A DNA stretch of 64,000 nucleotides from a virus: the IMG/VR virus record IMGVR_UViG_3300030329_006606, positions 24,817-88,816 of that record, one strand, 5' to 3'. This document shows positions 19,202-55,165 of the stretch, piece by piece. A model generated the notes under the pieces. The model had not been told where the DNA came from. It saw only the letters and a list, made by a program, of their open reading frames with translations, and ran no database searches. Within the stretch, counting starts at the first letter, position 1. The number at the start of each line of letters is the position of its first letter. The position numbers and the translations under genes are program-made.

Positions 19202-19210
19202 AATAACAGT

Positions 19211-21464: not shown

Positions 21465-21465
21465 C

Positions 21466-22620: not shown

Positions 22621-22624
22621 TGTC

Positions 22625-22652
22625 TTGACAATATATAAATATGTCGTATCAT
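22625..22652 (+). promoter_or_regulatory. sigma70-like promoter TTGACA-N16-TATCAT, 6 nt before ATG 22659
   Basis: Shares ATGTCGTAYCATT..AGTATG with the promoter at 12431. Confidence 0.7.
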
Positions 22653-22658
22653 TTAAGT

Positions 22659-23631: not shown

Positions 23632-23844
23632 TTAAGCTTCTGTAATAACTTCGTACTCTGTTCTTCTGTCTTCTAAAAATCCTTCGTCATACATATATTG
23701 TATTATGTTTGATATATCGTCACGCTCGACTCTTTGTTCTGGATCGTATATGTATATTCTTTTATTTTTCCAACAGCCATTGGGGTAATGAATGTTGGGT
23801 TCTTCCTTGATTTCTACATCCCAATTATATACTTTAAGTTTCAT
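23632..23844 (-). CDS. hypothetical protein (70 aa)
   Basis: MKLKVYNW start overlaps the stop of the 1442-aa gene (TAATG). Confidence 0.6.
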   Translation of the reverse strand: MKLKVYNWDVEIKEEPNIHYPNGCWKNKRIYIYDPEQRVERDDISNIIQYMYDEGFLEDRRTEYEVITEA

Positions 23845-26800
23845 TATTGTGGGCAATCTTCAGCTTCAGCATGTCTCCAATTTGTGTCGTCCAATCGGTC
23901 ATTTGTGTCTATGGGGGGATTATTTAAATTGTTGTTAGTTAGAGATACAAAACTCGTCCCTTGGTAACATACGACAGCGCCGACACTGTAACTAGTTACA
24001 GAATCCCAAGCATTAACCCCTTCCTCTCCACAGCAAGAATCGTCCGCATCATTTTGGCATGCTCCCGCTGTTTGTCCGGGCATACACGTAACTGAAGTAT
24101 AATCACAACAATCACTTATATTCCATCCGCTCCATAGACAATTATAGAATGTCCAATCACCAGTAGTATCCACCCAAGTTGACCCCGAAGCATTATATGT
24201 AGCCTCTGATATGGGGTAGGCACTAGCACAAACCGTATCTCCACCCGGGATTGTGACCAATCCATGGTTACAAGCTTGATTATTTAGGCAGCCTACGCTA
24301 TGATTATCCTTACACTCCTTAGTATAGTAGGTGCAGCCCTCCTCAGGCCAACAAGTTTCCAACCTAAAGTAATCATATCCACTCGGACAGGATGGATCAG
24401 GATCACCGGTACTGTTTGTACAATTAGCGTTCGCTGTAACAGATATCGGACCGTTGTTCGGACAATTGGCCGCAGCGCCAAAATTTGCTCCAAGACACAT
24501 ATTTAATCCCACGGGAAACGGGAAGATGGGCGACGTGACGGGGAAAAAAGGCATGTAATCAATGGAGGCCGCCACGTAATTTCCGTTTGTTATGGCCCAA
24601 TACTTTTTGACACCAATATCAAGTGACTCAAGCTTAATAGCGCCATTAACCGTACCGTCATGATTCATAAGGTTGAACACCGCTGGATAAGGCCAGGGGT
24701 TTGTGGCGTGGTAACATGGCAAAACCTCGTTTATATAAGTTCCATTATACTGTGAATCTGACCCTGTGAAACCAGAGACATCGACACAACACCTATTTGT
24801 AGGTTCACCGCTACAATTTGATTGCGAAACTAATGCCGCGTCAAATGCAGCGTCTGCAGGGTTTGGGTTATTTTGCTGACAAAGATCTATATAAGTTTCA
24901 ATCGGCACGCTCCAATTAAATGTACACGGATCACCCGCTTCTATACCTTGGTCCGAAGAATTTGCGCTTATATAGTAACTTCCTGCGTCCGTGTCACACC
25001 TCAGACAACAATCCCCCGGCGGAGCAGTTGTGGTTGTTGAGGTTGTCGTCACCACGACCGGCGGATCACAACACAACACAATAAATTCGTTACCACCAGC
25101 ATAATCATCTTGCTCCGCTGTATTGAAACCAGCGAACGCATTCCAATTAAAAGTTATTACCCCACCCGGGGGCACCTCTTGCCCGTTAACGGTTATACAC
25201 CCCGTTTGTCCAGTGTTTGTAAATTTAGCAGTTTTAGTCAGATCTGCGGGGTTAACCTGAGGAGCACAATCAGAGTACTGATTATACCAAACTTTGAAAG
25301 TTTTATCCTCCGTATAACTACCCGTAGCAATCTCAGGGCTTGGAGGCGCCGCTTCACAATCAGGATGAGCATCTACATTAAGAGACATAGCGCCTTCGTT
25401 CATGTTGTCCCACCATACTGTAGGATCATTACCCACCTTAACGTATAAATCTAAATCAGGACACCCATTCTGCACCAAAGGGGTCGGCGTTGTTCCTGTC
25501 GTCGTCGTTGTCGGTGCAACAGTCGTAGTAGTTGTTGTCGCTGTTCGATAGCATGGATCACACGGAAAAACAGGGGACACCAAACACAAACAGGGGTAGA
25601 AACTTGCGTACTCTGGAGCAGTATCCGTGGAGATCCAAACATAATCACCATACGCCGAATCCGTACCCTTGTGTGACGTAATGGGCGGCGACTGGATCGG
25701 ATGATTCCAGAACGGATCATTACTGTCTATAACTTTATACGTGGTCACCGATTGTTGCGCCTCCTCCAATGCACAACCCGGAACTGAACCAGCGCCGTGT
25801 GCATAAAGAATATCACCAGCATTAATACCTTCATTACTATTAAGCCATTTTTTAACGGGTTGGGCCTGCGGCGGACACTGACCGGGTGGGTAACAGGCAC
25901 TATTCCCCCATCCCCCTAGCCCCGGAGTCCATGTTTGACTATAACAGTTATTTGCCCCACAACATTCACATGGACAAGGATCTGGAGTTGTTGTCGTTCC
26001 CGCCGCGGTTGTTGTTGTCGTTCCCGCCGCGGTTGTTGTCGTTCCCGCCGCGGTTGTTGTTGTCGGCGCTGCGGTTGTTGTTGTCGTGGCCCCACCACAC
26101 TCACAATCATCACCCGCGCCAGTCATATCATTACAACTATTACCCATCCAGTGGTCTTGTATTACATCCGCATTATCACAATCAAGATTCGTAACGCTTA
26201 TATTACCAATGCATTGGCCCCCGATCTTTACGCACTCAAAGCAGTCATCGCCGTTGCCGGTATCTTCACACGCACCATGACAGTCCTCTCCTGTGGTTCC
26301 ATAATTGTCACAAAAAGTTACTTGCTGTCCATCGCAAACCCTAGTGCCAGAGTATACTCTTTTATGACAACCCTGACGCAGTGCCGGTGAGCACACTTGA
26401 GGACATGAGCCGGTACATAGCGGACACATATATACTTCATGATGGATAAGCCAAGACTGCCCCGTTACTCTTTTGTACCCCCACTGCCAACAACATGGGT
26501 CGTTTGAAATTGAATTATTTGCAATCCAAGTATCCACCATTCCCTGAATATGATTGACAATCATAGTTTGAGTAGGAAAATTGGTTATCCCTGCATTATA
26601 AAAATGTTGAAGCGTAATAGTTTGGTTATGCCCACAACCGGACCCAGTACTTGAGCCATTCCACCCAGAAGGACAAGACGTCGTAGTGGTCCCAGAAGCC
26701 GTCGTAGTGGTCCCAGAAGCCGTCGTAGTGGTCCCAGAGGAGCAAGCATTACAGTTTGAGTCTACGTCCCAATAACCACCTTGACCAGTAAAAGCTATTT

Positions 26801-28172
26801 CTTGGGTTACTTCGTAACAACATTGGTGAGCGACCCCAGCAATTTTAATAACGTCACCTATATTTAAATCTATAACCCCAATAAGGGTGCTGGCGTCTTG
26901 TGATAGTTTTCTGTTTGATACTTCCCCGGTCGGGGCGACTCCACTACACGAGAAGCCTTGGTTCGCGCACAACTGTAGACTATATCCTTTATAGTTTGGC
27001 GCGACCGTTGTCGTCGTTGTTGATGTCGTCGTCGTTGTCGGTGCAACAGTCGTAGTAGTTGTTGCATTGCAGTATGAAATCATTGGAGCTCTATAATTCT
27101 CCAAGCAATCTCTCATTCGGTCCGCTTGACCTTGAGTGAATAACCCCATACAATGATCGGCTGAGTAATCCATGTAGTTCTCCCACATGTCATATTCATC
27201 TGGATTTTCATGCATGCAACTGTTTGAATTAACCCCCGTATCCGGATCTGCTCCCGGACAATAGAGAGTCCCTAGGGCGGGGTCACGCCACGCACCGCAG
27301 CCGTCTGTTCCCGCTGTACTAGAACCACACCAAGTATGATCGTAGCCCTGACGAGGTGTGTCCGTAACATAATCATCTTGCTGGCAATCGCCATCACCCC
27401 ATATATGTCGTAAATTAAAAAAATGTCCAAGTTCGTGAGTAAGGGTTCTCCCCTCGTCGTAGCCATTTATGCCACCCGCAACAGTGCCCTTTTTCCAACT
27501 TTGAAGATTTATGACCACGCCTTGGATTGGGGCACCCATAGTCGAGTTCTGAGGGTGCCATGATGGAAATGATGCATAACCAAAAAGAATTGAATTTGGG
27601 TTGGCTGGATTATATATTTGCCCAATCCATATATTTAAAACTGTTGTGTTTGATTCGTTAGTGCTTGCTCCACCCACGGGGTCACTCCCACCTTGCGAGC
27701 TCATTTTAATCTCATCACCTATAGGGTAGCCGGTGATAGGCGCAGAAACATCTGTTCTACCTGTGGACGGATCCCATTCAAGCTCTATACCTACATCTGC
27801 AGCCCTACTAGCCCACCTTGCCGGAATGTCTGCGTTCGTTTTTCTGAAATCTTCATTTACTTTATCTATGCCAGCTTGGATTTCCGCATCACTCAAGATT
27901 CCCGGATTTAAAAGACAAACATGTACATGACAACACACCTTATAAACCGTTTGCTGAGATGAAAATAAACCAAAAATGTCACTTTCTCTTGCTTCTCTTA
28001 CTTTTTTAAGTCTTTCTAAGGATTCTAGCTCTTTTTGTATATATAATTGTTTTGATTCTTCTGGGTAGTTTTCGTATATTTTTTTAATATAAGAAGAGGT
28101 CGAGCAACGCCGACCAGTATCGTCTACTGGGTCGTTCCATGGCAAGATTATTTTTGGCTCTTTTTTACTCAT
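23844..28172 (-). CDS. 1442-aa modular protein: N-terminal pro-M43 (pappalysin-type) zinc metalloprotease, Cys-rich modules, Thr linkers, YfaP-like domain, C-terminal CBM5/12-like domain
   Basis: RRC cysteine-switch-like motif, LNIW..., GYASFP, HELGHFFNLRHIWGD (27405-27437), DTP, NYMDYS Met-turn, FT.GQ..RM; DLDLYV domain; W...Y.VG.VV.YQG tail. Confidence 0.85.
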   Translation of the reverse strand: MSKKEPKIILPWNDPVDDTGRRCSTSSYIKKIYENYPEESKQLYIQKELESLERLKKVREARESDIFGLFSSQQTVYKVCCHVHVCLLNPGILSDAEIQAGIDKVNEDFRKTNADIPARWASRAADVGIELEWDPSTGRTDVSAPITGYPIGDEIKMSSQGGSDPVGGASTNESNTTVLNIWIGQIYNPANPNSILFGYASFPSWHPQNSTMGAPIQGVVINLQSWKKGTVAGGINGYDEGRTLTHELGHFFNLRHIWGDGDCQQDDYVTDTPRQGYDHTWCGSSTAGTDGCGAWRDPALGTLYCPGADPDTGVNSNSCMHENPDEYDMWENYMDYSADHCMGLFTQGQADRMRDCLENYRAPMISYCNATTTTTVAPTTTTTSTTTTTVAPNYKGYSLQLCANQGFSCSGVAPTGEVSNRKLSQDASTLIGVIDLNIGDVIKIAGVAHQCCYEVTQEIAFTGQGGYWDVDSNCNACSSGTTTTASGTTTTASGTTTTSCPSGWNGSSTGSGCGHNQTITLQHFYNAGITNFPTQTMIVNHIQGMVDTWIANNSISNDPCCWQWGYKRVTGQSWLIHHEVYMCPLCTGSCPQVCSPALRQGCHKRVYSGTRVCDGQQVTFCDNYGTTGEDCHGACEDTGNGDDCFECVKIGGQCIGNISVTNLDCDNADVIQDHWMGNSCNDMTGAGDDCECGGATTTTTAAPTTTTAAGTTTTAAGTTTTTAAGTTTTPDPCPCECCGANNCYSQTWTPGLGGWGNSACYPPGQCPPQAQPVKKWLNSNEGINAGDILYAHGAGSVPGCALEEAQQSVTTYKVIDSNDPFWNHPIQSPPITSHKGTDSAYGDYVWISTDTAPEYASFYPCLCLVSPVFPCDPCYRTATTTTTTVAPTTTTTGTTPTPLVQNGCPDLDLYVKVGNDPTVWWDNMNEGAMSLNVDAHPDCEAAPPSPEIATGSYTEDKTFKVWYNQYSDCAPQVNPADLTKTAKFTNTGQTGCITVNGQEVPPGGVITFNWNAFAGFNTAEQDDYAGGNEFIVLCCDPPVVVTTTSTTTTAPPGDCCLRCDTDAGSYYISANSSDQGIEAGDPCTFNWSVPIETYIDLCQQNNPNPADAAFDAALVSQSNCSGEPTNRCCVDVSGFTGSDSQYNGTYINEVLPCYHATNPWPYPAVFNLMNHDGTVNGAIKLESLDIGVKKYWAITNGNYVAASIDYMPFFPVTSPIFPFPVGLNMCLGANFGAAANCPNNGPISVTANANCTNSTGDPDPSCPSGYDYFRLETCWPEEGCTYYTKECKDNHSVGCLNNQACNHGLVTIPGGDTVCASAYPISEATYNASGSTWVDTTGDWTFYNCLWSGWNISDCCDYTSVTCMPGQTAGACQNDADDSCCGEEGVNAWDSVTSYSVGAVVCYQGTSFVSLTNNNLNNPPIDTNDRLDDTNWRHAEAEDCPQ
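25986..26090. repeat. coding tandem repeat encoding TTT(T)AAG linker
   Basis: GTTGTTGTCGTTCCCGCCGCG-type 21/24-nt unit about 3 times. Confidence 0.8.
26680..26738. repeat. coding tandem repeat (GTCGTAGTGGTCCCAGAAGCC)x2.8
   Basis: Unit identical to the array at 29709-29771 in the 3001-aa gene. Confidence 0.85.
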
Positions 28173-28194
28173 TTCTTATATATATTCTTCAATA

Positions 28195-28206
28195 ATTACA
28201 CTTTTT
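28195..28206 (-). promoter_or_regulatory. putative late-promoter motif AAAAAGTGTAAT
   Basis: 22 nt upstream of ATG 28172. Confidence 0.55.
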
Positions 28207-28231
28207 GAATAAATTAAATTACGATGACTCA

Positions 28232-28999
28232 TTATGTAGGCGGCGGAGCAACCGTTGTCGTACAAGGATTACACTCCGGACACTCTTCATTAGGGTCTAC
28301 AGGCTCCCTTACATCCTCACAATTACAATCTTCACCATCATCACCACAAGGAGGAATAACTGGTTTAGGGAATGTTGGCGGACACGGGGTAGTAGTCGTA
28401 GTAGCAGAACATGGCCATTCTAATAAAAATTCAACCGTATAACTACAATCTGGCGGCAACGTAGTCGTAGTTGATGTTGTTCCACACGGCCACCCCAAAG
28501 AAAACTCAACTGTATAACTACAATCCCCCGGAGGAGTAGTTGTGGTTGTTGAGGTTGTCGTAGTTGGCGGCACGGTGGTAGTGCTTATTCCACCACAATC
28601 ACAATTAATGTTGGTTCCACCTAAGGTTACCCATTCGTCATTGAGTCCATCTTCACAATCACCAAATCCTTGCCCATAGTAAGCCAGACCATAACTGTCT
28701 GGGCCCATTAAGTAGTCTAAGCCTTCGCTAATTATTTTAGCACAACAATCAATACCACCACAATACTGACCCCCGGCTGGATCGTTACCGGAATATGTTA
28801 TGTACGCATAGGCAGGGTCTTGTGTCCAATTCCCCATCGGGTTGTCGTGACACATCGCACAATAAGCATCGTAAATTTTAACTTGCGCACCATCGCAACA
28901 CCTTATGGCGTCGTAATAATGCCAAGGTCCAGAAGGATTATATATATAATGAAGATTTTCTCTTTCTTCACGCTGATTTATGGGCTTTTTTGGCGGCAT
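28232..28999 (-). CDS. Cys/Thr-rich protein with duplicated DCSYTVEF.L.WPC module
   Basis: 255-aa ORF using the same module and linker types as the flanking giant genes. Confidence 0.7.
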   Translation of the reverse strand: MPPKKPINQREERENLHYIYNPSGPWHYYDAIRCCDGAQVKIYDAYCAMCHDNPMGNWTQDPAYAYITYSGNDPAGGQYCGGIDCCAKIISEGLDYLMGPDSYGLAYYGQGFGDCEDGLNDEWVTLGGTNINCDCGGISTTTVPPTTTTSTTTTTPPGDCSYTVEFSLGWPCGTTSTTTTLPPDCSYTVEFLLEWPCSATTTTTPCPPTFPKPVIPPCGDDGEDCNCEDVREPVDPNEECPECNPCTTTVAPPPT

Positions 29000-29023
29000 T
29001 TTTTATTTTCCATTTTATCTTCA

Positions 29024-38029: not shown

Positions 38030-38058
38030 AATATTTTTATTATCTATTATTATTAATC

Positions 38059-38072
38059 ATTACAGTATTTTC
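38059..38072 (-). promoter_or_regulatory. variant late-promoter motif AAAATACTGTAAT
   Basis: One mismatch to GTGTAAT, in the gap upstream of ATG 38029. Confidence 0.35.
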
Positions 38073-38082
38073 AAAAAATACG

Positions 38083-41000: not shown

Positions 41001-44000
41001 GCTGGTTGGCATCTATCGAAAGGGTTGCCCCGACCTGAACCCAAGCTTGATCCGTTAGATTAATGGTAGTATCTCCGATATTCGCCGCTTGATCCAGTAA
41101 CGCTCTATTTGCTTCCTCTCCTTCACACCCACTTGTTAATATGCATACTTCTTGATTTACTCCATCCACACAAATAGTTATAGTTCTAGTAACTACAGGC
41201 TCCCAATGTAACCCTCCCCCATTATTCCATAATATAGAGGGTGCGTTTTCGGGGCAAGGTAAAAGTGTTCCATCTCCACCAGTGCAGTCTCCTCCTCCAC
41301 AGAAGTGTAATTCAGAAACAGAAAGCTTATCAGACTTAAATCCTTTTTCAAACGTTACGCATTCTTTAAATGTGGTTTCACAATAGAAGGTTGATTCGTT
41401 CCAGACTAAAAGATTGTTGTCGCATAGCTCGCCGGGTTCACCGATCATAACCAACTCCTGTAAATGTGTATCACCTTCGATAGTTAAATTTTGCTTGCCG
41501 GTTATATTACATTGGAATGTCATAGCTGTCCACCAATTGGTGTTACAACACTCATTTCCAGCGTTACCTATGTCTCCGCAAGGATCATCACCAAAACCCG
41601 GTTTACCTTGGTAGCCTTGATAACCAGAGCCTTCTCCACCTTGGAAACCTTGATAACCTTGACCGCCAAGGCCTTGATAACCCTGATAACCTTGGTACGT
41701 AGCGTAACCACTTTGTCCTTGATAACCTTGGAAACCTTGATACCCCATATTAGTGCAACTTCCGTGACAAATAGTAACTGATAGTTGACCATTAAACGAG
41801 CTTTCTAAGCCGGTTATCTCCATGTAAGCTTGTGTTGGTTGGGGTGCGCCAGCAGGTTTCGTAGACGGGACAAAAGTTGATATCGTCGATCCTTCAAATT
41901 TTTCTTCACCAGCTTCGTTTTGATTTACGCAAATGGGCTCGCCTTCGGTCCAGCAATTTTCTGCATTATTCAAGTATGCTTTAATTTTTCCTCCAGCTAA
42001 AGCTTCCCAACCTCCAGCAGTAGGAACAGCGTTACCGTTTGGATCACCAATGAAAGTTTCGCAAGCTGGACAACCTTCACCTTTGGCACCTTGATAACCT
42101 TGAAAACCTTGTGCTCCTCGATAACGAGCGTAACCATCTAAGCCCTGATAGCCTTGATAACCCTTATAGGTTGCGCTGCCATCTTTCCCCTGATAACCTT
42201 GGGCTCCTTGGTAACGAGCATAACCATCCAGTCCTTGGTAACCTTGAGCTCCTTGGTAACGAGCATAACCGTCTAAACCTTGATACCCCTGATATCCTTG
42301 GTACCCTTGATATCCTTGGTACCCTTTATCTCCTTGATACCCTTTATATCTCGCATAACCATCATACCCTTGATACCCCTGATATCCTTGGTACCCTTGA
42401 TAGCCATTCTTGGGGCACGGACCAAGACATATTATTAGCGTGTCACCCTTTTTTGCTCCCTTGCCTTCGTCGACCCCAGCTACATCAAATTTTACTTCAG
42501 ATCCCTCGCCAACATCAGCGCTAGCTATGGTTAATGTATCATTTAATTTATAACCTGAACCGCCGCTAACTACTGTCACTGTTGTGCCCGAACCATCTAT
42601 AACTACTTTAAATTTTGCCCCAGACCCCGCTCCTCCACTAGCTGAAACCTCAGTGTATTCTCCTGAAGCGTCGCCTCCGGAAATATTATCTACACTCTGT
42701 ATAGCGCCTTCATTCTCGCCCGCCTCAAAAGGGTTATTGCTTGCAATAGCCATATCGCCACCGCCGGGCTCAATAGTGAATGTTCCTTGTTGTCCCGTGG
42801 CGGGATTATAAACGCAATAAGTTTCACCGGGACACAAACAATCTTCCACCTCTGATTTATCACAACGCTTTGGTTCCTCCCCGCCAGCGCAACAATTTGG
42901 GTGATCTTCTTCTGCACCTGAAGATATGCATTTTGCACCCTCTTGCCCTTCGTCAGAACCCTTCTGAACTTTTGAGCATGCGTCCGGACAACAGTCTTGA
43001 AAAAAGCAGCAAGCATCATCACAGCAACAATCCGGAACACATGCCTGAGTAGAATCAGAATTACACATTTCGCATTCTGAACCGAAATCTCCACCATCAT
43101 TTGGGTTTTTATAACAACAGTTCCAATCTGGAGACCCCGGTGCCCCAGCGTTAGGTTTATCTGTATCACAAGGTATACATCCAGCTTTTCTGCAACACTT
43201 CCACCCTCCAGCCTCATTACATTCTCCGCAAGCGCCACCCGGCAATGTCGGGTCTTGGGTAGTAGTCGTTGTACCCGGTCCACCCGTTGTTGTCGTGGTT
43301 GTTCCCGGCGGCGCGGTCGTATTAGATATTTGACCACATTGAGCAAACGAATCTCCCGGACACGGGATACCGGAGAATAGTCCACCCTGCGAATTTGTTG
43401 TACCATTAAGTAAATTAGTTCTATTCGGTGAAATCTCTAAATTGGCATGCATTACATTCATCTGCCCGCAAGTAAATATGCTTTGACAAGTTTCCCCGCT
43501 ATAATCCATGAAATTTTCGTACATATCAAGCGAACCGCACGTTTCCTTGCTTGGCCCGGGACAATCTTGCCCAGACGACTGGTCCTGAAGAGGGGTGTCG
43601 GCTACACCATCATCTCTACTACAATCGCCATCACCCCAAATATGTCTCAAACCAAAAAAGTGCCCAGCTTCATGAACCATAATTATACCGCTATCTTTTG
43701 CGTCAGATCCCCACGACCCATCATAAGCTCCATCACAACCATCGCCCTCTCGCCCTTCGGATGTAGCGCCGACAGTTCCTGTATGATCACCGAAAGCTCT
43801 GTGGTCCATAACTACGCCATCCTCATTACCCGTCGGGTGCAAATCTGCCCTAAAATTCGGGAATGTACCATAACCATACAAACAGAACCCGGCTGGCATT
43901 AATAAATGACATACCCATATATTAAAATGACCATCTACTGCGTCGGACCCGCCTGTTGAGTCATGCTTAACTGGGTCCGGTTTTGAATCCCTAGAGGCAT

Positions 44001-47000
44001 TATTTTCTGGCCAGAAAGAAGTTGAATCAGTATATTTTCTGGTAACCCCAGCTAGCTCAAATTGTATACAGGCGTTAGCTGTTTCGTTCTGCCACCTACT
44101 AGGTTTATATCCGTATCTTCCTCCGCCTCCACCAAACCCTCTATTTAGAGCTTTGATTTGTGATTCAATTTGTGCGTCAGATATATTTTGATAATCTTCA
44201 TGCCACACGACATGAACCCATACCTTAACTAATTTTGATTGCCCAGCAATAACACTGAGGGTTTGTGCTTTGTTTAAAACTTCTTCTTCTTGTAGTTGTG
44301 CTAAATTTTTCGCAAATGGATTATTATCCATATGAGATTTTATAAGATCATGAGCAATACACCCTCCGCTCTTCAATACGCACCCTGTGTCAAGACTTAT
44401 GTCTTTGGTGATGTATTTATCATCCCAAGGCATCGAAAAGCCAGAACTATTACTTTTAACAATCTTCGCTTCAGAATAGGGTTGTTTCGCTACGTTTTCG
44501 GGGCATGTCGTACACGTGGTCGTAGCCCCATCACCACCATCGCCGCCGTCCTCACAACATGGATCGCTGAACACTGAGCAATCCGGATCCAAGGCTGGAG
44601 AACTATAACCTACCGCTTGACAATCTCCAACTTTAACATAAAGATCTAAATCTGGCTGAAGGAGCGCCCCCTCCCCCTTGTTCCAACCCAAACTCGCATC
44701 TATGGAGTAGTCCATCGGGTCCGTACAAGGCGCGGCCGTAGTTCCTCCCGGGGGGGCTGTTGTCCCGCCGCCGTTTTGTGCGCAAGTGCATGGCGCCCAC
44801 ACACCGGTTGCAGCCTCTGGGGGTGTGTTGATATGAGTAGTATTCGCAGCATCACCATCAAGACATTCCCAACAGGTATCATCACAGGAAGAGCAACCAC
44901 ACCCCACGTTACATGATGCCACATCACCCGTAGTCCATCCGCCAGAAATAGTCCAAGTATATGTCGGCGTACAAGTACCAGATTGAGTAGTAGTAGTCGT
45001 AGTGGGTGAATTAAAAACATTTGATTCCTCCGGTGCACCTGCATCGGTAACCGTGTATGTTTTGCCATTAGCAAAATCATTTTGTGCTCCAGTATTATAA
45101 CCGGCGTAAGCTATAGCATCATTCTCAGCAAATGTATGAGATTCTCCCGCGGCAATAGTTTCCCCATTAACCTCTATGCTGTTGGTGCTATGATTATTTG
45201 TGAATTTAACAGATTTAACTGGTGCAGTTTCACCAGCACCGTCACTACTGTATTCAAGAGCACATTGACTATGTTGGTTATAATAAACGCTAAATGTTTC
45301 TGGTTTGGAAAATTTCCCACTTATTTTTTCTGGCGGAAAGCCTACGTTATTACACCCCGGAAAAACGTCCTTCTCTAAATTTAGAGAACACTTAGCAGAG
45401 GGTGTTGTACAGGTTGAATCCCCCACTTCATTGCACCACGTTACCTCAAAACAAGACGGACAACCGGATGGACCCGCCTTACCTTGTGCTCCCTTAGGGC
45501 CATCTTTACCTTCTTTACCTTGATAACCTTGGTAACCTTGATAGCCTTGATACCCCTGACAAGGTACGGCATAATCATAAACCAATGTTCCGTTTTTAGC
45601 TTCACAATTAGTCGTTGCTTCTTCGAGGGTAATTCCTCGAACTAAGAACGTTTTCGGGTTCGGCCATTGAGGCTCTGGATAAAAAGGAGAGGAGTCTTGA
45701 GATTCTTCATTTATTTCTGCATCAATGTCAATTACTTTTGATAAATCAAATGGATTCCCCGGAATTGGAATCTCATTATTCCAACAATAATTACAAGGCT
45801 CAGTCTTCATGACTCCTTGATCAACCCATTCGTATTCTGGGCATCTATCATTCACTCCCGGTCCACAATGGAAAGAAAAATTACAACCATTATTACAAAC
45901 GTTCGGTAAATTATTCCCTGTCCATCCTTGGCAATCCCCGTACCTTTGCTCCATGCAAACGGTTTCTCCTCCTCCGTCAGCGCCATGGAAAGTTCTATGA
46001 CATGCATCAGCATCACCACCACCCCAAACAGAACAAGTGTCCCCTCCGGGACCATCAGGACAACACATGCCAGAGGTCGGCGGCGTCGAACTCCCGGGTG
46101 CGTCAACCACACCACAATCTTGCCTCGGAATGACCAGTCGTCCAGAATTGGTAAAATAAACGCCATCGGCATGGGTTGCCCAATCCCAACAATCACCGAC
46201 AAACCTGATCATTGTCAAAGGCGCACATCCACCTTGACACCCGCAACAATCATCACAAACATTACATAAGAACCATTGGACTTTTCCTTGACATATTGGC
46301 CCACCCGTTGTTGTCGTGCCGGGCGTTGGCGTAGTCGTAGGTCCAGCCGTGGTGGGTGGAGATGTTACTCCGTCACCACGAGCGCAAAGCCAGCACTTAT
46401 CAACACCTTGATAACCTTGAGATCCAGTTGAAGGCGTAAAGTCGATAGCAGGCTTACATTTTTTTGTATTTCTTACCCTGCTCTTAATATTAACATCTCT
46501 ATATGTTATAGCCGCATATGGTATATCCTCGTACGTGGGCTTAGAACAGTTACTTTTAATAGCGTCTATACTCACATCACCACCGCCGTCAACAAATCCA
46601 GCGTCTCTTAAGTTGTCTGGATTCATTGCTAAATTAGCGTTGTTTATACCCGCCCACTTCGGGTCGTTTGGATGAACACAACCCAACATTTCAGACAGAT
46701 AGACTTCATTAGAAATGCCCTTATCACCCATCTGCAACAAAGGCCACCATGAAAATTGCTGTCCTGCGTTTTGAAGATTAGTATTAAAAGTGTTAACCCT
46801 ATGTATATCTAAGGTTAATAATCTATTAGAATACCCTTTGCCCAGAGGAACATTCCTGTCGATTGCAGTATCCCCAAAAGCGCTCCCCCCACGATTCAGT
46901 GAGCCCCACGACACGGCTCCGCCCTCAAATAAGGAGTTATGCGATCTACCTCGGTATTTATGTTGGGAGCCATCGTCACCTGACCACATAATAAAATCTT

Positions 47001-49203
47001 GATGTTTTACTATAGAATGGTTCGTTGTTTCATAATTGATCGGATCAAAACCAGCACCAAACCCAGCGAAATTAATGCCATTACCCTTCCTTAATACGTC
47101 TGGGTCTCTAATATAGATAGGCTCAGCTAACTCCACCGCCTCAATAATGTCTCCCACCTTATAGGCTGGAGTAATTGGACCCAAACAACCTTCCCACGAC
47201 ATTGGATCAACAAGATATTCCTTGGGGCAATAAGGTCTAAATCGATCTTGATTACTATAGTCAGGAGATTTCCTTGCGTCAGTATTAATAATCTTTCTCC
47301 AGTTACCCTCAAAGTCCTCTCTATAAGCACTGTACACTGAAGAAGAATTACCCTGATTCCTAACAACTTCAACAGGCGGGTGATTATTTTTCGGCCCCAT
47401 GCCCATAAGAGGACAATCTCTAGCTTCATCAAAATTAGCCGGGTTACAAGTGGGGTCTATTTTTTCTGAACCAATATTCATGAAGAAACCCCACTCCATT
47501 TGAGTTACCATCGCATTTCCAATAGGAGCATTAGCAACTTCTAATGGGTCGCCACCCTGATTAAGAACCCACTGTTTAAACCCTTCTCCGGCGCTGGTTG
47601 GTATATAAATTTGTCTCGTGCCATCAATAGCGTCTTGAACTGTGGGGTGAAGGGTAAAACAATGACACGAACTTTCGTCAACTCCATCAGCATTTCCCCT
47701 AGCGGGCCTAGCGTAAGCTCTTCCGTAAGGATATAATTCATATAATTCTATTGGATAACACTCAGTTGTTATCGTTGGCCAGTGAAATGGGTTCATTTCG
47801 TTATCAACACCATTTGGCTTCTGAATAAGAGAGCCTCCCCCAGTCGTTGTCGTAGTTCCCGAAGCAGTCGTTGTCGTAGTTCCCGAAGCAGTCGTTGTCG
47901 TAGTTCCCGAAGCAGTCGTTGTCGTAGGCGCGCCCGTTGTAGTGGTGGTTGTTCCACATGTTGCTTCACCCAAAAAAGCAAACGCAGTCACGGCATGAGC
48001 ATTAGTGTTACCATCTCTAAAAGTGAGAGATATTTCATCCCCTGTAGATATACAATGATTTAATGATGGCAAACAAAATGTTGTCCAAGCAAATATGGTT
48101 GGATCCTGTGGCGGCGCCGTTGTTCCCGTACACACACAATCCCCCGTCGGACACCCTCCCACGACCTTAACCTGCGATGAGGTTTCCTTTTGGCCAATTG
48201 TAGTTGGGAACAGAATAGTTCCATCGCTTAACTTCATCGGTTGACTTGAATCAAGCGTCTGAAGTATATTATCAGGATCAATAAACTCAACCCTTTCGGG
48301 TAGTGGGTTTAGTCTTGGAGTACAATCTGGATTAACCGGCGTCCCATAAAAACCAGACGTTACCCCTTGTCCTGAGTCGAAAGAAATATCCAACTCCCAA
48401 GCCGTAGCCGCTGCGGCTGATGCCTGCCCGCCTTGGTTAATTACAACCTTGATGTAATCTCTTGAGCCGTTTAGGTTAACTTCAATCCTATTCGTGCCCA
48501 TGTTGGCGCCTTCACCCATTGGGCAAGTAAAGCCGTCCTTAAATAATTGAAGCTCCACCGGGTCCATCTCCGGATCACCATACCAAAAAGGACCAAAAGC
48601 GTTAGAGTCCCCCGAATAGCTTTCGTCACCGTTATCTGAGTAAAATACAGTAACCCAATCAGGTACTGCGGCTACATCTAAATCTAAAATTAGTTTACCG
48701 TTCTTACAGTTTTGGCCCCAAGAACTAGTATCTATAACTATTATTTTTTCGTTTCTGTATTGATCAACATATTGTAGAGAAAGAGAACTGCACCCACCCT
48801 CTCCTGTGGCTGTGTTCGGGTCTCCGGGTGCCGCCGTCACAGGGACCGCATCCCCTCCGTCTCCTCTAGGAGGATTAATAATTTCCGTAAATGGATCCTC
48901 ATCTTCTCCTGCGGATTTTTTTGCGCCGCCTAATTTTATAGTTCCTTGATTGTAGGAAATTGTATCTCCGTCAGAATTTAACCCGCCATGAACCCACAAA
49001 GCCCTTGGTCTCTCAACAAGAACTTTTTTACCACGGTTCGTGCCTTCAAGGTATTCACAAAGCAACAACCTACTATATAATGTAAAATCTTTACACCAAG
49101 CACCACTATAACCAACGTCTTCAGCCAAACCAACGATACGCATCTTAACTAGTTTTTCACCGTTAAGATTTTCAACGTCCCATACTGATTGGTTAAAAGC
49201 CAT
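38083..49203 (-). CDS. 3706-aa modular fibre-like protein with an internal pro-M43 metalloprotease, GYQ collagen-like repeats, Cys-rich modules and Thr linkers
   Basis: HEAGHFFGLRHIWGD (43642-43674), DTP, NFMDYS, FT.GQ; (GYQ)n blocks at about 45470-45560, 42080-42405 and 41595-41745. Confidence 0.85.
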   Translation of the reverse strand: MAFNQSVWDVENLNGEKLVKMRIVGLAEDVGYSGAWCKDFTLYSRLLLCEYLEGTNRGKKVLVERPRALWVHGGLNSDGDTISYNQGTIKLGGAKKSAGEDEDPFTEIINPPRGDGGDAVPVTAAPGDPNTATGEGGCSSLSLQYVDQYRNEKIIVIDTSSWGQNCKNGKLILDLDVAAVPDWVTVFYSDNGDESYSGDSNAFGPFWYGDPEMDPVELQLFKDGFTCPMGEGANMGTNRIEVNLNGSRDYIKVVINQGGQASAAAATAWELDISFDSGQGVTSGFYGTPVNPDCTPRLNPLPERVEFIDPDNILQTLDSSQPMKLSDGTILFPTTIGQKETSSQVKVVGGCPTGDCVCTGTTAPPQDPTIFAWTTFCLPSLNHCISTGDEISLTFRDGNTNAHAVTAFAFLGEATCGTTTTTTGAPTTTTASGTTTTTASGTTTTTASGTTTTTGGGSLIQKPNGVDNEMNPFHWPTITTECYPIELYELYPYGRAYARPARGNADGVDESSCHCFTLHPTVQDAIDGTRQIYIPTSAGEGFKQWVLNQGGDPLEVANAPIGNAMVTQMEWGFFMNIGSEKIDPTCNPANFDEARDCPLMGMGPKNNHPPVEVVRNQGNSSSVYSAYREDFEGNWRKIINTDARKSPDYSNQDRFRPYCPKEYLVDPMSWEGCLGPITPAYKVGDIIEAVELAEPIYIRDPDVLRKGNGINFAGFGAGFDPINYETTNHSIVKHQDFIMWSGDDGSQHKYRGRSHNSLFEGGAVSWGSLNRGGSAFGDTAIDRNVPLGKGYSNRLLTLDIHRVNTFNTNLQNAGQQFSWWPLLQMGDKGISNEVYLSEMLGCVHPNDPKWAGINNANLAMNPDNLRDAGFVDGGGDVSIDAIKSNCSKPTYEDIPYAAITYRDVNIKSRVRNTKKCKPAIDFTPSTGSQGYQGVDKCWLCARGDGVTSPPTTAGPTTTPTPGTTTTGGPICQGKVQWFLCNVCDDCCGCQGGCAPLTMIRFVGDCWDWATHADGVYFTNSGRLVIPRQDCGVVDAPGSSTPPTSGMCCPDGPGGDTCSVWGGGDADACHRTFHGADGGGETVCMEQRYGDCQGWTGNNLPNVCNNGCNFSFHCGPGVNDRCPEYEWVDQGVMKTEPCNYCWNNEIPIPGNPFDLSKVIDIDAEINEESQDSSPFYPEPQWPNPKTFLVRGITLEEATTNCEAKNGTLVYDYAVPCQGYQGYQGYQGYQGKEGKDGPKGAQGKAGPSGCPSCFEVTWCNEVGDSTCTTPSAKCSLNLEKDVFPGCNNVGFPPEKISGKFSKPETFSVYYNQHSQCALEYSSDGAGETAPVKSVKFTNNHSTNSIEVNGETIAAGESHTFAENDAIAYAGYNTGAQNDFANGKTYTVTDAGAPEESNVFNSPTTTTTTQSGTCTPTYTWTISGGWTTGDVASCNVGCGCSSCDDTCWECLDGDAANTTHINTPPEAATGVWAPCTCAQNGGGTTAPPGGTTAAPCTDPMDYSIDASLGWNKGEGALLQPDLDLYVKVGDCQAVGYSSPALDPDCSVFSDPCCEDGGDGGDGATTTCTTCPENVAKQPYSEAKIVKSNSSGFSMPWDDKYITKDISLDTGCVLKSGGCIAHDLIKSHMDNNPFAKNLAQLQEEEVLNKAQTLSVIAGQSKLVKVWVHVVWHEDYQNISDAQIESQIKALNRGFGGGGGRYGYKPSRWQNETANACIQFELAGVTRKYTDSTSFWPENNASRDSKPDPVKHDSTGGSDAVDGHFNIWVCHLLMPAGFCLYGYGTFPNFRADLHPTGNEDGVVMDHRAFGDHTGTVGATSEGREGDGCDGAYDGSWGSDAKDSGIIMVHEAGHFFGLRHIWGDGDCSRDDGVADTPLQDQSSGQDCPGPSKETCGSLDMYENFMDYSGETCQSIFTCGQMNVMHANLEISPNRTNLLNGTTNSQGGLFSGIPCPGDSFAQCGQISNTTAPPGTTTTTTGGPGTTTTTQDPTLPGGACGECNEAGGWKCCRKAGCIPCDTDKPNAGAPGSPDWNCCYKNPNDGGDFGSECEMCNSDSTQACVPDCCCDDACCFFQDCCPDACSKVQKGSDEGQEGAKCISSGAEEDHPNCCAGGEEPKRCDKSEVEDCLCPGETYCVYNPATGQQGTFTIEPGGGDMAIASNNPFEAGENEGAIQSVDNISGGDASGEYTEVSASGGAGSGAKFKVVIDGSGTTVTVVSGGSGYKLNDTLTIASADVGEGSEVKFDVAGVDEGKGAKKGDTLIICLGPCPKNGYQGYQGYQGYQGYDGYARYKGYQGDKGYQGYQGYQGYQGYQGLDGYARYQGAQGYQGLDGYARYQGAQGYQGKDGSATYKGYQGYQGLDGYARYRGAQGFQGYQGAKGEGCPACETFIGDPNGNAVPTAGGWEALAGGKIKAYLNNAENCWTEGEPICVNQNEAGEEKFEGSTISTFVPSTKPAGAPQPTQAYMEITGLESSFNGQLSVTICHGSCTNMGYQGFQGYQGQSGYATYQGYQGYQGLGGQGYQGFQGGEGSGYQGYQGKPGFGDDPCGDIGNAGNECCNTNWWTAMTFQCNITGKQNLTIEGDTHLQELVMIGEPGELCDNNLLVWNESTFYCETTFKECVTFEKGFKSDKLSVSELHFCGGGDCTGGDGTLLPCPENAPSILWNNGGGLHWEPVVTRTITICVDGVNQEVCILTSGCEGEEANRALLDQAANIGDTTINLTDQAWVQVGATLSIDANQHNAETVTVTGLGSVLVTALTKAHSKGAVVQLVSNPTTTTSTTTTTTSGPTTTSGPTTTTTAGPTTTTVAPARYYIVEHHMASVPVFDITESSGWSSGALVPAQFTSSLVYKPSEDYFYNQFWGVSNNISCYANTTFSSSDLGQNINKCGGFWTKQRPSWDVGSWVNSWSQAPAAGSNCSDVDAWGNPTDASCWESKWNPGVFVTIFSDIDMANSGLDFDDLKLGDVVWATADGSDVKTCWTITGVGGNNTALPTEWSTSDGSTAATTYKDLWDSLNSIGKINPWTLVASYNCFAHWSFSTNTGVFKSSQYGNSASARSSCSACVDMVDSQVNQPNGEDCSPCSLSVCDTNNLVQPISIGSTSVYLRHHSGLSVGDSLVIDPWTSNEETFSISTLSGLMTAQRTKRVGMLATATSSFAKSHSANAAVIGLAEKNALQNKYKITKCCDNGSDTVLNVSGLTKASCATHADVSCLNDGCWIPNGCVNGKCSWRYSKESEEYGDCATGQPFKSVYIYWNVFKGVTGNELGRWEMSPAIPPKGVISYSTHRCPWTWTADENRSSASNPWDSTVTWQYGAKVGRGGAGRSACIVSRTAAQVVAIATTTTATPTTAAAPLQSATTTTTQGPTLPGGCCTPKHEWTDMVVEEFHSWSGGFCDNKSCCHWDGGCILGSCQGVVQTSAHNGFRSNSQVYLKKEDPNNPGEFIKTCYRVKDAHAVDATTKWSESPDISSNWEECGCPSKNGCPATTTPEPCDTPEKLGLIVSGHSGEFPAGGCLNGCYLALTYNNKCYTTTVAPVFVPGGVTGATPNPAGTASPTVGPTQPPPVPNPTTAGPTTTTTTPAPGVQEYIGIDCRTNQQVRFIDEYGTAAAYPNAVSHEIGGVETMAYETLLLERAITVTRMINGQPVLVSSSASICVNSWTKTAWTGTATLTVLNKWMGKTCDVLHNDGDLGNNIPHSCMAPWNGGTYNSGNIMP
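41595..42405. repeat. collagen-like G-X-Y (GYQ/GAQ/GFQ) coding repeats in two blocks
   Basis: 9-nt periodic CCTTGATAC-like units; interrupted by DGYARY. Confidence 0.85.
47841..47927. repeat. coding tandem repeat (CAGTCGTTGTCGTAGTTCCCGAAG)x3.6
   Basis: Perfect 24-nt units encoding ASGTTTTT. Confidence 0.85.
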
Positions 49204-50636: not shown

Positions 50637-50639
50637 ATT

Positions 50640-55148: not shown

Positions 55149-55165
55149 ACCTTTTTCCTTTATAA

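What the first reader, a model, noticed from the sequence alone, without database searches (positions are those of the whole stretch)
23844..49203. Three giant phage proteins, each carrying a pappalysin-type (M43) zinc protease within Cys-rich and mucin-like modules
Seen: ORFs of 1442, 3001 and 3706 aa each have a complete metzincin signature (HExGHxxxLxH at 27405-27437, 37055-37087, 43642-43674; DTP; NY/FMDYS Met-turn; FTxGQ). Each protease sits among small Cys-rich modules joined by Thr-rich linkers. No signal peptide is evident, and the genes lie in a putative late structural arm. Known: this motif set defines M43B (pappalysin/ulilysin), normally secreted enzymes of cells; familiar phage virion enzymes mostly attack polysaccharide or peptidoglycan. 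Inference: these are protease-bearing virion fibres that cut a proteinaceous barrier (S-layer, glycoprotein coat, mucus or biofilm matrix), with three paralogs giving different specificities. About 25 kb is spent on this system.
Basis: partly seen in the sequence, partly recalled or inferred. Interest (0 to 1): 0.85.

Follow-up and report, generated by a model that had tools for sequence, protein, structure and literature searches.

The report
Giant phage proteins carrying latent pappalysin proteases
An uncultured marine phage encodes three enormous modular proteins that each contain a complete, probably latent, zinc protease of a type otherwise known only as a secreted enzyme of cells, most likely carried on the virus particle to cut proteins on or around its host.

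Summary
ORFs of 1442, 3001 and 3706 aa are intact, and each holds a Pfam Peptidase_M43 hit above cut-off. Each is clearly homologous to ulilysin and mirolysin (E 1e-26 to 1e-32).

The contig is a marine tailed-phage fragment with DnaE, DnaB, primase, UvsX, RNR and a tmRNA gene.

Virion association is not shown. Three lines support it:
- The phage-type M43 unit has no signal peptide and a PWxDP motif. In three metagenomic relatives it is fused to homologues of the window's 674-aa protein, which has weak Dit-like fold matches.
- In a second phage lineage it sits in proteins of 1612 to at least 10,929 aa, between terminase/portal genes and the tape-measure gene.
- The nearest cellular homologues are signal-peptide-bearing, T9SS-secreted Bacteroidota proteases.

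S1' pocket residues differ among the three paralogues, which suggests different specificities. Only 1 of 50,697 deposited phage records has any M43 match, and my paper searches found no report of a phage M43.

Verdict: real, and a new variant of virion-borne enzymes. Function and virion location are inferred.

The parts
23844..28172 (-). Giant gene 1 (1442 aa): N-terminal M43 zymogen, then 5 Thr-rich linkers separating Cys-rich modules
27069..28172 (-). Pro-segment (PWNDP...GRRC, Cys23 at 28104-28106) plus M43 catalytic domain of gene 1 (aa 1-368). Canonical Arg(-2)/Asp(Tyr+3) pair.
27405..27437 (-). Zinc motif HELGHFFNLRH of gene 1
25071..25466 (-). Shared module B ('DLDLYVK...FKVWYNQ', aa 903-1034). 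Also present in the 3706-aa and 916-aa proteins and in relative P0008.
   Evidence: BLASTP E 1.6e-16, 4.4e-14, 6.4e-32
23946..24011 (-). Weak CBM5/12-like stretch near the C-terminus of gene 1 (below Pfam cut-off)
   Evidence: E 0.0084, 16.6 bits vs 26.2
28232..28999 (-). 255-aa protein between the giants: 8.2% Cys, 2 Thr-rich linkers, same module style
29024..38029 (-). Giant gene 2 (3001 aa): M43 zymogen near the N-terminus, 9 Thr-rich linkers, 148 Cys
36170..37852 (-). Pro-segment (Cys65, CG motif) plus M43 catalytic domain of gene 2 (aa 60-620), split by an insertion. No acidic residue at the S1' position.
36299..36904 (-). ~200-aa insertion between the DTPxQ loop and the Met-turn (aa ~376-577). 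It contains module C, which recurs in the 3706-aa protein. Poorly modelled.
   Evidence: (E 3.2e-07)
37055..37087 (-). Zinc motif HEAGHYLGLAH of gene 2
38083..49203 (-). Giant gene 3 (3706 aa): M43 zymogen in mid-protein, collagen-like GYQ repeats, 8 Thr-rich linkers, 170 Cys
43399..44391 (-). Pro-segment (Cys1615) plus M43 catalytic domain of gene 3 (aa ~1605-1935). Glu at the S1' position.
43642..43674 (-). Zinc motif HEAGHFFGLRH of gene 3
42076..42420 (-). Main collagen-like Gly-X-Y run (aa 2262-2376). A shorter run lies at 45463-45558 (aa 1216-1247).
   Evidence: (PF01391, 56.4 bits)
49203..62350 (-). Upstream co-directional, tightly packed genes of 674, 799, 916, 1502 and 477 aa. No Pfam or PHROG family. 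The 916-aa protein (55192-57942) has Thr-rich linkers and module B.
60326..62350 (-). 674-aa protein whose homologues are fused behind a phage-type M43 unit in three relatives. N-terminal domain has weak tail-tube/Dit-like fold matches.
62366..64000 (-). First gene of the arm, cut by the contig end (more than 544 aa, Pro-rich, C-terminal helical part). Identity unknown.
18395..23369 (+). Convergent neighbours including glycosyltransferase-like genes (weak Anp1-like hit; GT1-like 575 aa). That they could glycosylate the Thr-rich linkers is inference only.

Best explanation
The three genes belong to an uncultured marine tailed phage and encode very long, modular virion-appendage proteins (fibre- or baseplate-attached). 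Each carries one pappalysin-type (M43B) zinc endoprotease in zymogen form.

Proposed mechanism:
1. The proteins are made in the host cytoplasm without a signal peptide.
2. The protease is kept latent there by a pro-segment cysteine bound to the catalytic zinc (cysteine switch), and probably also by low calcium.
3. The proteins assemble onto the particle through the tail-module proteins encoded upstream.
4. The protease becomes active only outside the cell, in oxidising, calcium-rich seawater, possibly with autolytic removal of the pro-segment.
5. It then cleaves proteins on or around the host surface so the phage can reach its receptor.

The host is probably a member of Bacteroidota, whose secreted M43 enzymes are the closest cellular relatives. 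The copy in the 1442-aa protein should cut before Lys/Arg like ulilysin and mirolysin. The other two copies have altered S1' determinants and probably differ in specificity.

Shown: gene integrity, family membership, zymogen architecture, phage origin, and recurrent fusion to phage structural-module proteins in relatives. Inferred: virion location, activation route and substrates.
For: M43B identity:
- Pfam PF05572 is above cut-off in 3 of 3 proteins.
- phmmer to ulilysin gives E 4.6e-32 and 1.3e-29, and to mirolysin 3.9e-26 and 4.8e-29.
- The AF2 model of the most divergent copy has a core at pLDDT ~85-95. Its best Foldseek matches are ulilysin (E 5.6e-12, TMt 0.63), mirolysin, pro-ulilysin and PAPP-A.

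Zymogen:
- A Cys upstream of the catalytic domain is invariant in the 3 copies and present in 55 of 60 aligned homologues.
- The profile aligns this column to QRRC-G of pro-ulilysin and QRTC-G of pro-mirolysin. That is the Arg21/Cys23 plug and zinc ligand described in PMC6949598 (abstract and passages read).

Specificity:
- Residue Tyr+3 after the Met-turn is D in 48 of 60, E in 9, and C only in the 3001-aa protein.
- All 35 sequences with R/K at Cys-2 have D at Tyr+3. The three window copies pair as R/D (1442 aa), M/C (3001 aa) and G/E (3706 aa).

Phage origin:
- PHROG hits to DnaB, primase, UvsX, DnaE-like polymerase and RNR.
- The source is an IMG/VR record.
- GC is uniform, ~0.37-0.41, outside the giant genes.

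Structural link:
- The 674-aa protein aligns over its full length to the C-terminal parts of P0006 (BLASTP E 5e-66), P0156 (1e-39) and P0009 (4e-13). Each of these has a phage-type M43 unit at its N-terminus.
- In relatives G001/L009 the order is TerL, portal..., a ~3750-aa collagen-like giant, a 2746-aa M43 giant, 8 small genes, then the tape-measure gene (phrog_4211, E 8.6e-47).
- In G002 the head genes are followed by one ORF of at least 10,929 aa with M43 at aa 2686-3018.
- The N-terminal domain of the 674-aa model matches phage, tailocin or T6SS tail-tube-fold proteins in 22 of the 24 rows that align there, and 5 'Dit-like' BFVD rows. All these matches are weak.

Contrast with cells:
- 43 of the 57 database homologues scanned carry the T9SS sorting domain.
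- 75 of 79 non-giant M43 ORFs on IMG/VR loci have a hydrophobic N-terminus.
- 76 of the best 80 genome loci are Bacteroidota by title.
- The window proteins have neither a signal peptide nor a sorting domain.

Occurrence:
- Near-identical DNA is in marine runs of several studies. Contigs of one metatranscriptome cover all 30 bins of a 20-kb stretch with 0-2 differences.
Against: - No capsid, portal, terminase, tube or tape-measure gene is recognised on the window's own 88.8-kb record. The record is only ~57% complete.
- The Dit-like signal is under the tools' noise bars (Z 4.4-5.6; Foldseek E 0.014-0.11) and comes from a poor model (pLDDT 55).
- The relatives with head and tape-measure context share only the M43 unit with the window.
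- PHROG 'tail fibre' hits to the 3706-aa protein all lie on collagen-like repeats, so they may be driven by composition.
- 402 cysteines in three proteins fit poorly with folding in a reducing cytoplasm.
- RNA-library contigs can derive from carried-over DNA.
- No activity, virion proteomics or host is available.
Confidence: 0.55

Rival explanations
1. The giants are not virion parts. They are non-structural late proteins released when the cell lyses. They would then bind particles or cell debris through their many modules and digest surrounding protein. Possible roles are receptor destruction to stop progeny adsorbing to dead cells, or breakdown of gel or particle matrix.
For: - There is no signal peptide, yet the enzyme type is extracellular, with a cysteine switch and Ca-dependent relatives.
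- A high Cys content suggests folding or oxidation outside the cell.
- A weak CBM5/12-like tail is present.
- No recognised virion-attachment domain was found.
Against: - M43 is fused to the 674-aa family, which follows the first gene of the arm and has weak Dit-like matches.
- In relatives the M43 giants lie between portal and tape-measure genes.
- Collagen-like stalks are typical of phage fibres.
Confidence: 0.2
2. The M43 units act in cis or in trans on the giants themselves. They would be maturation proteases that cut a polyprotein-like precursor into separate modules during or after assembly, rather than attacking host material.
For: - In the 3706-aa protein the zymogen lies mid-chain, so removing the pro-segment would split the protein.
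- One ORF of at least 10,929 aa in G002 corresponds in position to two or more separate genes in G001.
- Lower pappalysins auto-activate by cleavage (PMC6949598).
Against: - Each giant carries its own copy with a different S1' pocket, which is unnecessary for self-processing.
- In the 1442-aa protein and in five relatives (P0005-P0009) the unit is at the extreme N-terminus, where self-cleavage would remove only the pro-segment.
- Nothing was tested directly.
Confidence: 0.12
3. The region is cellular, or belongs to a virus of eukaryotes. On this view the giants are ordinary secreted adhesin-proteases whose start codons were miscalled.
For: - IMG/VR labels the record 'provirus'.
- The left end encodes metabolic enzymes: proline dehydrogenase, ornithine cyclodeaminase and others.
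- Mucin-like and collagen-like sequences are common in eukaryotes.
- A few small M43 genes occur on giant-virus MAG contigs.
Against: - The replication genes are bacterial-phage types (DnaE, DnaB, DnaG-like primase, UvsX).
- GC is uniform across the metabolic and replication genes.
- The ORFs open with the conserved PWxDP pro-segment a few residues after the first Met, leaving no upstream room for a signal peptide.
- Relatives carry TerL, portal and a tape-measure gene.
Confidence: 0.05

Closest known systems
Ulilysin (Methanosarcina acetivorans) and mirolysin (Tannerella forsythia): unicellular or 'lower' pappalysins, MEROPS M43B
   Same: - Catalytic-domain homology (E 1e-26 to 1e-32) and fold.
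- Zinc motif, Met-turn MDY with the Tyr switch, the Asp-rich WGDGDC..DD..DTP loop and two conserved Cys.
- A cysteine-switch pro-segment aligned to QRRC-G and QRTC-G.
- The Arg plug and Asp pocket pair in the 1442-aa copy (PMC6949598, abstract and passages).
   Different: - The known enzymes are ~260-360 aa and are secreted with a signal peptide.
- Here the unit is embedded in proteins of 1442-3706 aa without a signal peptide, in a phage.
- A PWxDP motif precedes the switch.
- One copy has a ~200-aa insertion in the catalytic domain and lacks the acidic S1' residue. Another has Glu there.
Cytophagalysin CPL1 and other T9SS-secreted multidomain M43 proteases of Bacteroidota
   Same: - A large multidomain pappalysin with a pro-segment, a catalytic domain and many C-terminal modules. 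It is gelatinolytic (PMC11674741, abstract read).
- The nearest cellular homologues of the window's units are of this kind: 43 of 57 carry Por_Secre_tail, and 76 of the best 80 loci are Bacteroidota by title.
   Different: - CPL1 has a signal peptide and eight Ig-like domains.
- The window proteins have no signal peptide, no T9SS sorting domain and no Pfam-recognisable accessory domain except collagen repeats.
- They are two to three times longer and are phage-encoded.
Virion-associated depolymerases and lysins on phage tail fibres, spikes or evolved Dit/Tal proteins
   Same: - An enzyme domain grafted onto modular phage appendage proteins.
- The same domain moves between different structural carriers: giants here, the 674-aa family in relatives.
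- Several paralogues sit in one phage.
   Different: - From my own knowledge, the known cargo enzymes act on polysaccharide, peptidoglycan or poly-gamma-glutamate.
- A metzincin endoprotease zymogen was not found in the literature searches.
- Only 1 of 50,697 deposited phage records has any M43 match.
- Virion location is not shown here.
Baculovirus enhancin (viral zinc metalloprotease that degrades insect intestinal mucin); recalled, not tested
   Same: A virus-carried zinc metalloprotease thought to clear a proteinaceous barrier before infection. This is a functional analogy only.
   Different: It belongs to a different protease family and a different virus and host. No sequence relation was seen: Pfam reports only M43 and weak reprolysin/M10 overlaps.

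Membership tests
Peptidase family M43B (unicellular/lower pappalysins) | Significant match to the family profile over the catalytic domain | tested here: met
   PF05572 scores 46.3, 47.6 and 45.9 bits against a cut-off of 23. PDB ulilysin and mirolysin give E 1e-26 to 1e-32. The profile of 60 homologues scores 434 bits against pro-ulilysin.
Peptidase family M43B (unicellular/lower pappalysins) | Extended zinc motif HExxHxxxxxH with catalytic Glu, and a Met-turn (MDY) with the Tyr switch | tested here: met
   H246, E247, H250, H256 and M334-D335-Y336 (numbering of the 1442-aa protein) are invariant in all 3 copies and in the 10-sequence phage-type alignment.
Peptidase family M43B (unicellular/lower pappalysins) | Metzincin/pappalysin fold | tested here: met
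   The model of the 3001-aa copy (pTM 0.69, core pLDDT ~85-95) matches ulilysin at Foldseek E 5.6e-12 and TMt 0.63, then mirolysin, then PAPP-A. The other two copies were not modelled and are inferred from sequence.
Peptidase family M43B (unicellular/lower pappalysins) | N-terminal pro-segment with a cysteine-switch Cys (Cys-Gly motif) and an Arg plug two residues before it | tested here: met
   The Cys is present in all 3 copies and in 55 of 60 homologues, and aligns to the Cys of pro-ulilysin and pro-mirolysin. Arg at -2 is present only in the 1442-aa copy. The CG pair is present only in the 3001-aa copy. Zinc ligation itself cannot be tested here.
Peptidase family M43B (unicellular/lower pappalysins) | Asp at the bottom of S1' giving Lys/Arg P1' specificity | tested here: inconclusive
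   Asp in the 1442-aa copy, Glu in the 3706-aa copy, and absent (Cys, with a 2-residue deletion) in the 3001-aa copy. The role of this residue is taken from PMC6949598.
Peptidase family M43B (unicellular/lower pappalysins) | Secretion through a signal peptide | tested here: not met
   The maximum 12-residue hydropathy in the first ~56 residues is -0.15, -0.18 and 0.78, and there is no TM-like segment (a crude measure). This is a feature of the known members' biology, not of the catalytic family.
Peptidase family M43B (unicellular/lower pappalysins) | Zinc- and calcium-dependent endoproteolytic activity | not testable with these tools
   Needs recombinant protein.
Phage tail fibre / virion-associated enzyme | Gene lies in the virion morphogenesis module | tested here: inconclusive
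   Own contig: a co-directional arm of orphan genes with none recognised. Relatives: M43 giants lie between TerL/portal and the tape-measure gene. Three relatives fuse M43 to the 674-aa family.
Phage tail fibre / virion-associated enzyme | Oligomerising stalk elements such as a collagen-like triple helix | tested here: met
   PF01391 scores 56.4 bits against 27.2 in the 3706-aa protein only. The same repeat style occurs in relatives P0014 and in the G002 and G001 giants. None was found in the other two window giants.
Phage tail fibre / virion-associated enzyme | Physical presence in particles | not testable with these tools
   No isolate or virion proteome is available.
Distal tail protein (Dit), for the 674-aa protein | N-terminal tail-tube-like Dit fold, with the gene just after the tape-measure gene | tested here: inconclusive
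   The model is poor (pLDDT 55, pTM 0.49). Its N-terminal domain matches phage baseplate, neck or tube proteins at Z 4.4-5.6, below the ~7-8 noise bar. There are 5 BFVD rows named Dit-like at E 0.014-0.11. The upstream gene is cut by the contig end and is not recognised as a tape-measure gene.

The most novel reading that the evidence does not exclude
A marine phage lineage, probably infecting Bacteroidota, has turned its host phylum's secreted pappalysins into virion weapons. The proteases would be mounted on giant, collagen-stalked, mucin-like fibres. The Thr-rich linkers may be O-glycosylated by the phage's own set of about six glycosyltransferase-like genes, and the Cys-rich modules may oxidise after lysis. 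The proteases would be assembled latent through the cysteine switch and fire only in calcium-rich seawater. The three paralogues would have diverged in P1' specificity so as to strip a proteinaceous host coat or marine gel matrix. This would be the first class of phage 'depolymerase' that is a true endoprotease. The same system would also account for genes of more than 30 kb (at least 10,929 codons) in relatives.
Probability: 0.25. Interest if true: 0.85.

Novelty: new variant of a known kind. Interest (0 to 1): 0.72.

Why it matters
To my knowledge, phage appendage enzymes attack sugars or cell wall. A latent metzincin endoprotease carried by phage structural-module proteins would add protein coats to the barriers phages are known to digest: S-layers, T9SS-anchored surface proteins, and proteinaceous marine gels.

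The finding also offers:
- a natural example of how a dangerous extracellular protease can be built inside a cytoplasm, kept latent by a cysteine switch and a calcium requirement;
- three natural S1' variants of LysargiNase-type enzymes that are of interest for proteomics;
- a family of extremely long phage genes, 25 kb here and more than 32 kb in a relative, made almost entirely of modules unknown to Pfam.

Tried and rejected
- **Single-protein scans of IMG/VR:** the M43 unit of the 1442-aa protein, the 799-aa protein and a 43-base stretch near the window's end found nothing. A 674-family alignment also found nothing there.
- **First metagenome scan:** the 537-aa ORF found nothing.
- **Metagenome loci as records:** L008-L014 are not held as records.
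- **Neighbour annotation:** PHROGs and Pfam on the six upstream genes and the 255-aa gene gave no family. PDB sequence searches with the 1502-aa and 916-aa proteins gave none at E up to 1.
- **ESM Atlas:** for the 799-aa and 674-aa proteins it gave only leads under 0.9 ('phage minor tail protein', viral hypothetical clusters).
- **Word-based searches:** the 674-aa protein found 3 proteins. The non-protease part of the 1442-aa protein found only itself, probably swamped by Thr-run words.
- **Shared N-terminal anchor:** I looked for one among the 477-, 1502- and 3706-aa proteins. No pair exceeded z 3.5 except the two pro-segments.
- **Relaxed Pfam scan (E up to 1):** it added no domain to the giants.
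- **Thr-linker-delimited modules:** all-against-all BLAST of 34 modules found only the M43 unit, modules B and C and collagen repeats shared.
- **Phylogeny:** the IQ-TREE run did not finish. In the FastTree tree the 13 phage-type units fall in an 18-row split with support of only 76. The three window copies do not group together and two have long branches. A single phage acquisition is therefore neither shown nor excluded.
- **PHROG 'tail fibre' hits on the 3706-aa protein:** I discounted these because they cover only collagen-like repeats.
- **Supplementary files of papers:** not consulted.
Full report
**1. The observation**

The window has three intact minus-strand ORFs at the stated places: 23844-28172 (1442 aa), 29024-38029 (3001 aa) and 38083-49203 (3706 aa).

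- A DNA pattern for HExxGH occurs four times against 0.17 expected, and none of 100 shuffles reaches four.
- Pfam's Peptidase_M43 model scores 46-48 bits against a cut-off of 23 in all three.
- phmmer against PDB sequences finds ulilysin and mirolysin at E 1e-26 to 1e-32, across the whole catalytic domain.
- The three copies are only 36-37% identical to each other. They share every hallmark: HExGHxxxLxHxWG, the Asp-rich loop ending in DTPxQ, DMxENxMDYS and FTxGQ.
- I modelled the most divergent copy, from the 3001-aa protein. Its core is confident (pLDDT about 85-95, pTM 0.69). The best structural matches are ulilysin (Foldseek E 5.6e-12, TMt 0.63), mirolysin, pro-ulilysin and then PAPP-A.

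The domains are therefore genuine M43B metzincins.

**2.

Each unit begins with a pro-segment that carries a conserved cysteine.

- In an alignment of the three copies with 57 database homologues, this Cys is present in 55 of 60 sequences.
- A profile of that alignment places the column on the Cys of QRRC-G in pro-ulilysin and QRTC-G in pro-mirolysin.
- The mirolysin structure paper (PMC6949598; abstract and passages read) shows that this Cys binds the catalytic zinc (cysteine switch). It also shows that the Arg two residues before it plugs the S1' pocket, and that an Asp at the pocket bottom gives Lys/Arg P1' specificity. A double calcium site acts as a calcium switch.

The three window copies differ at these positions.

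| Protein | Residue at Cys-2 | Residue at Tyr+3 after the Met-turn |
|---|---|---|
| 1442 aa | Arg (R21-R22-C23) | Asp (MDYSAD) |
| 3706 aa | Gly | Glu |
| 3001 aa | Met | Cys (2-residue deletion, no acidic residue) |

Across the 60 sequences, Tyr+3 is D in 48, E in 9 and C only in the 3001-aa copy. All 35 sequences with R/K at Cys-2 have D at Tyr+3.

The 3001-aa copy also carries an insertion of about 200 aa between the DTPxQ loop and the Met-turn. The insertion contains a module that recurs in the 3706-aa protein. It is poorly modelled.

**3. Architecture of the giants**

- None has a hydrophobic N-terminal stretch or a TM-like segment.
- They contain 5, 9 and 8 Thr-rich linkers and 84, 148 and 170 cysteines.
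- Apart from M43, Pfam recognises only collagen repeats in the 3706-aa protein (56.4 bits) and a sub-threshold CBM5/12-like stretch at the end of the 1442-aa protein. This holds even at E up to 1.
- Cutting the linker-bearing proteins at their linkers gives 34 modules of at least 30 aa. Only the M43 unit, two small modules (B and C) and the collagen runs are shared among them.
- Module B also occurs in the upstream 916-aa protein. The 255-aa gene between two giants has the same Cys- and Thr-rich style. The system is therefore wider than the three genes.

**4. What the contig is**

The window is the right-hand 64 kb of an 88.8-kb IMG/VR record, estimated at 57% complete.

- The plus-strand arm encodes RNR subunits, a UvsX-like recombinase, DnaB helicase, primase, a PHP protein and a DnaE-like polymerase. 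The polymerase is under 30% identical to any deposited phage.
- A full-length tmRNA gene is present.
- There are many sugar-related and amino-acid-catabolic genes.
- GC is uniform outside the giant genes.

This is a tailed phage of bacteria. However, no head or tail gene is recognised on this fragment. The six genes upstream of the giants (537+, 674, 799, 916, 1502 and 477 aa) have no Pfam or PHROG family.

**5. Evidence from relatives**

An exhaustive HMMER search with the M43 unit of the 1442-aa protein found 8172 proteins at E up to 1e-3. The closest seven (P0004-P0009 and P0014, 36-45% identity) share three features: no signal peptide, a PWxDP motif before the switch cysteine, and mostly Thr-linker or collagen architectures.

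Three clusters (P0006, P0156, P0009) are fusions of this unit to full-length homologues of the window's 674-aa protein, at BLASTP E 5e-66, 1e-39 and 4e-13.

The 674-aa protein is the first complete gene of the arm. Its model is poor (pLDDT 55).

- Of the 24 rows that align to its N-terminal ~200 residues, 22 are phage, tailocin or T6SS tail-tube-fold proteins from baseplates, necks and tail tips. Their Z values of 4.4-5.6 are below the tool's noise bar.
- Five BFVD rows are named Dit-like, at E 0.014-0.11.

I treat this as a lead, not a finding.

A second lineage gives clearer context.

- In G001/L009 the order is large terminase (phrog_2, E 5e-23), portal (E 1.4e-6), other genes, a collagen-like giant of about 3750 aa, the 2746-aa M43 giant, eight small genes, and a tape-measure protein (E 8.6e-47).
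- L010, L011 and L170 repeat this layout.
- In G002 the head genes are followed by a single ORF of at least 10,929 aa that runs off the contig, with M43 at aa 2686-3018.

These relatives share only the M43 unit with the window. They show that the phage-type unit is a recurrent cargo of structural-module giants. They do not show that the window's arm is a tail arm.

**6. Contrast with cellular and other viral M43 genes**

- Of the 57 database homologues scanned, 43 carry the T9SS sorting domain.
- Of the best 80 loci in species genomes, 76 are Bacteroidota by their titles. The top hit is itself a phage-like contig binned into a MAG.
- A survey of IMG/VR found 78 loci with 81 M43 ORFs. Only two, G001 and G002, are giants without a signal peptide. 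Of the other 79 ORFs (212-740 aa), 75 have a hydrophobic N-terminus.
- Among 50,697 deposited phage records, only one has any match, and it is an unannotated 7.6-kb fragment.
- Paper searches found nothing on a phage-encoded M43. The terms were M43/phage/pappalysin, metzincin/bacteriophage/tail fiber, virion-associated/protease/S-layer/phage/depolymerase, Peptidase_M43/phage and ulilysin/virus.

**7. Occurrence and expression**

- Clusters containing the exact 1442-aa and 3001-aa proteins are seen on 12 contigs, the longest 198,302 bp. Source names of relatives point to a mesopelagic 0.1-0.22 µm fraction.
- Near-identical DNA is in marine runs of several studies.
- Contigs of one metatranscriptome cover all 30 bins of a 20-kb stretch across the three genes with 0-2 differences. 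Carried-over DNA cannot be excluded.
- A run from another study holds a variant a few percent diverged, with few and mostly compensated indels. This fits maintained reading frames.

**8. Interpretation**

The best reading is that these are virion-appendage proteins carrying latent pappalysins (confidence about 0.55). The steps would be:

1. synthesis in the cytoplasm;
2. latency through the cysteine switch and low calcium;
3. mounting on the particle;
4. activation in seawater;
5. cleavage of proteins on or around a probably Bacteroidota host.

Rivals:

- lysis-released, non-virion enzymes (0.2);
- self-processing of polyprotein-like giants (0.12);
- a cellular or eukaryotic-virus origin (0.05).

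The high cysteine content is unexplained under cytoplasmic assembly. The cluster of glycosyltransferase-like genes next to the giants suggests, without evidence, that the Thr-rich linkers are glycosylated. Virion glycosylation in mycobacteriophages is known to me only from a reference list.

**9. Verdict**

Family assignment is secure, and the zymogen and specificity details are new. Virion location and substrate remain inferred.

It is a new variant of a known kind: enzyme-bearing phage appendages, here with an endoprotease zymogen as cargo.

Noticed in passing
window 3916-4342 (+): A full-length tmRNA gene (Rfam RF00023, 130.7 bits vs 47; ARAGORN tag peptide EADAILAKFGYVEEETLQLAA). It lies inside the phage replication module, between the UvsX-like recombinase and a methyltransferase/DnaB.
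   Followed up: partly
G000 1-12828 (-) (= L006) and window 7916-11203 (+): An unusual set of amino-acid catabolic genes on a phage record. It includes proline dehydrogenase, ornithine cyclodeaminase, a 2-hydroxyacid dehydrogenase, a 2OG-Fe dioxygenase, a glyoxalase-family protein, an aldehyde dehydrogenase (406 bits) and a saccharopine-dehydrogenase-like protein. GC matches the replication genes.
   Followed up: partly
window 76-2387, 14221-15849, 18395-21464; G000 9742-10476, 15798-18504: Many glycan-related genes. There are about six glycosyltransferase-like genes (DUF5672, GT1-like, GT2, Nucleotid_trans and a weak Anp1-like hit), a nucleotide-sugar epimerase and a carbamoyltransferase. Some lie right beside the giant genes.
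   Followed up: no
G002 (L090, L167-L169) 2-32788 (-): A single open reading frame of at least 10,929 codons that runs off the contig end, in a related IMG/VR phage record. It starts with collagen-like repeats and has M43 at aa 2686-3018, directly after the head genes.
   Followed up: partly
P0005, P0007, L170 (relatives): The M43 giants of the second lineage also carry repeats that look beta-propeller-like, a segment resembling a papain-like cysteine peptidase ('GHAVLI(I/V)GY...W(I/L)I(V/L)RDN') and Calx-beta-like repeats. These were judged by eye only.
   Followed up: no
window 41600-42420 and 45463-45560: Contigs from other runs show many skipping or back-stepping joints exactly at the two collagen-like GYQ repeat runs. 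This probably reflects assembly ambiguity or length variation of the repeats.
   Followed up: no
window 24001-50000: The giant genes have higher GC (0.43-0.48) than the rest of the record (0.37-0.41), and a strongly negative GC skew on the plus strand. This could be compositional (Thr, Gly, Cys, Pro codons) or a sign of foreign origin.
   Followed up: no
L092, L093, L091, L109 (IMG/VR): Small (362-377 aa) M43 genes with signal peptides. At least two of them are on contigs labelled as giant-virus MAGs, which is a separate viral occurrence of the family.
   Followed up: no
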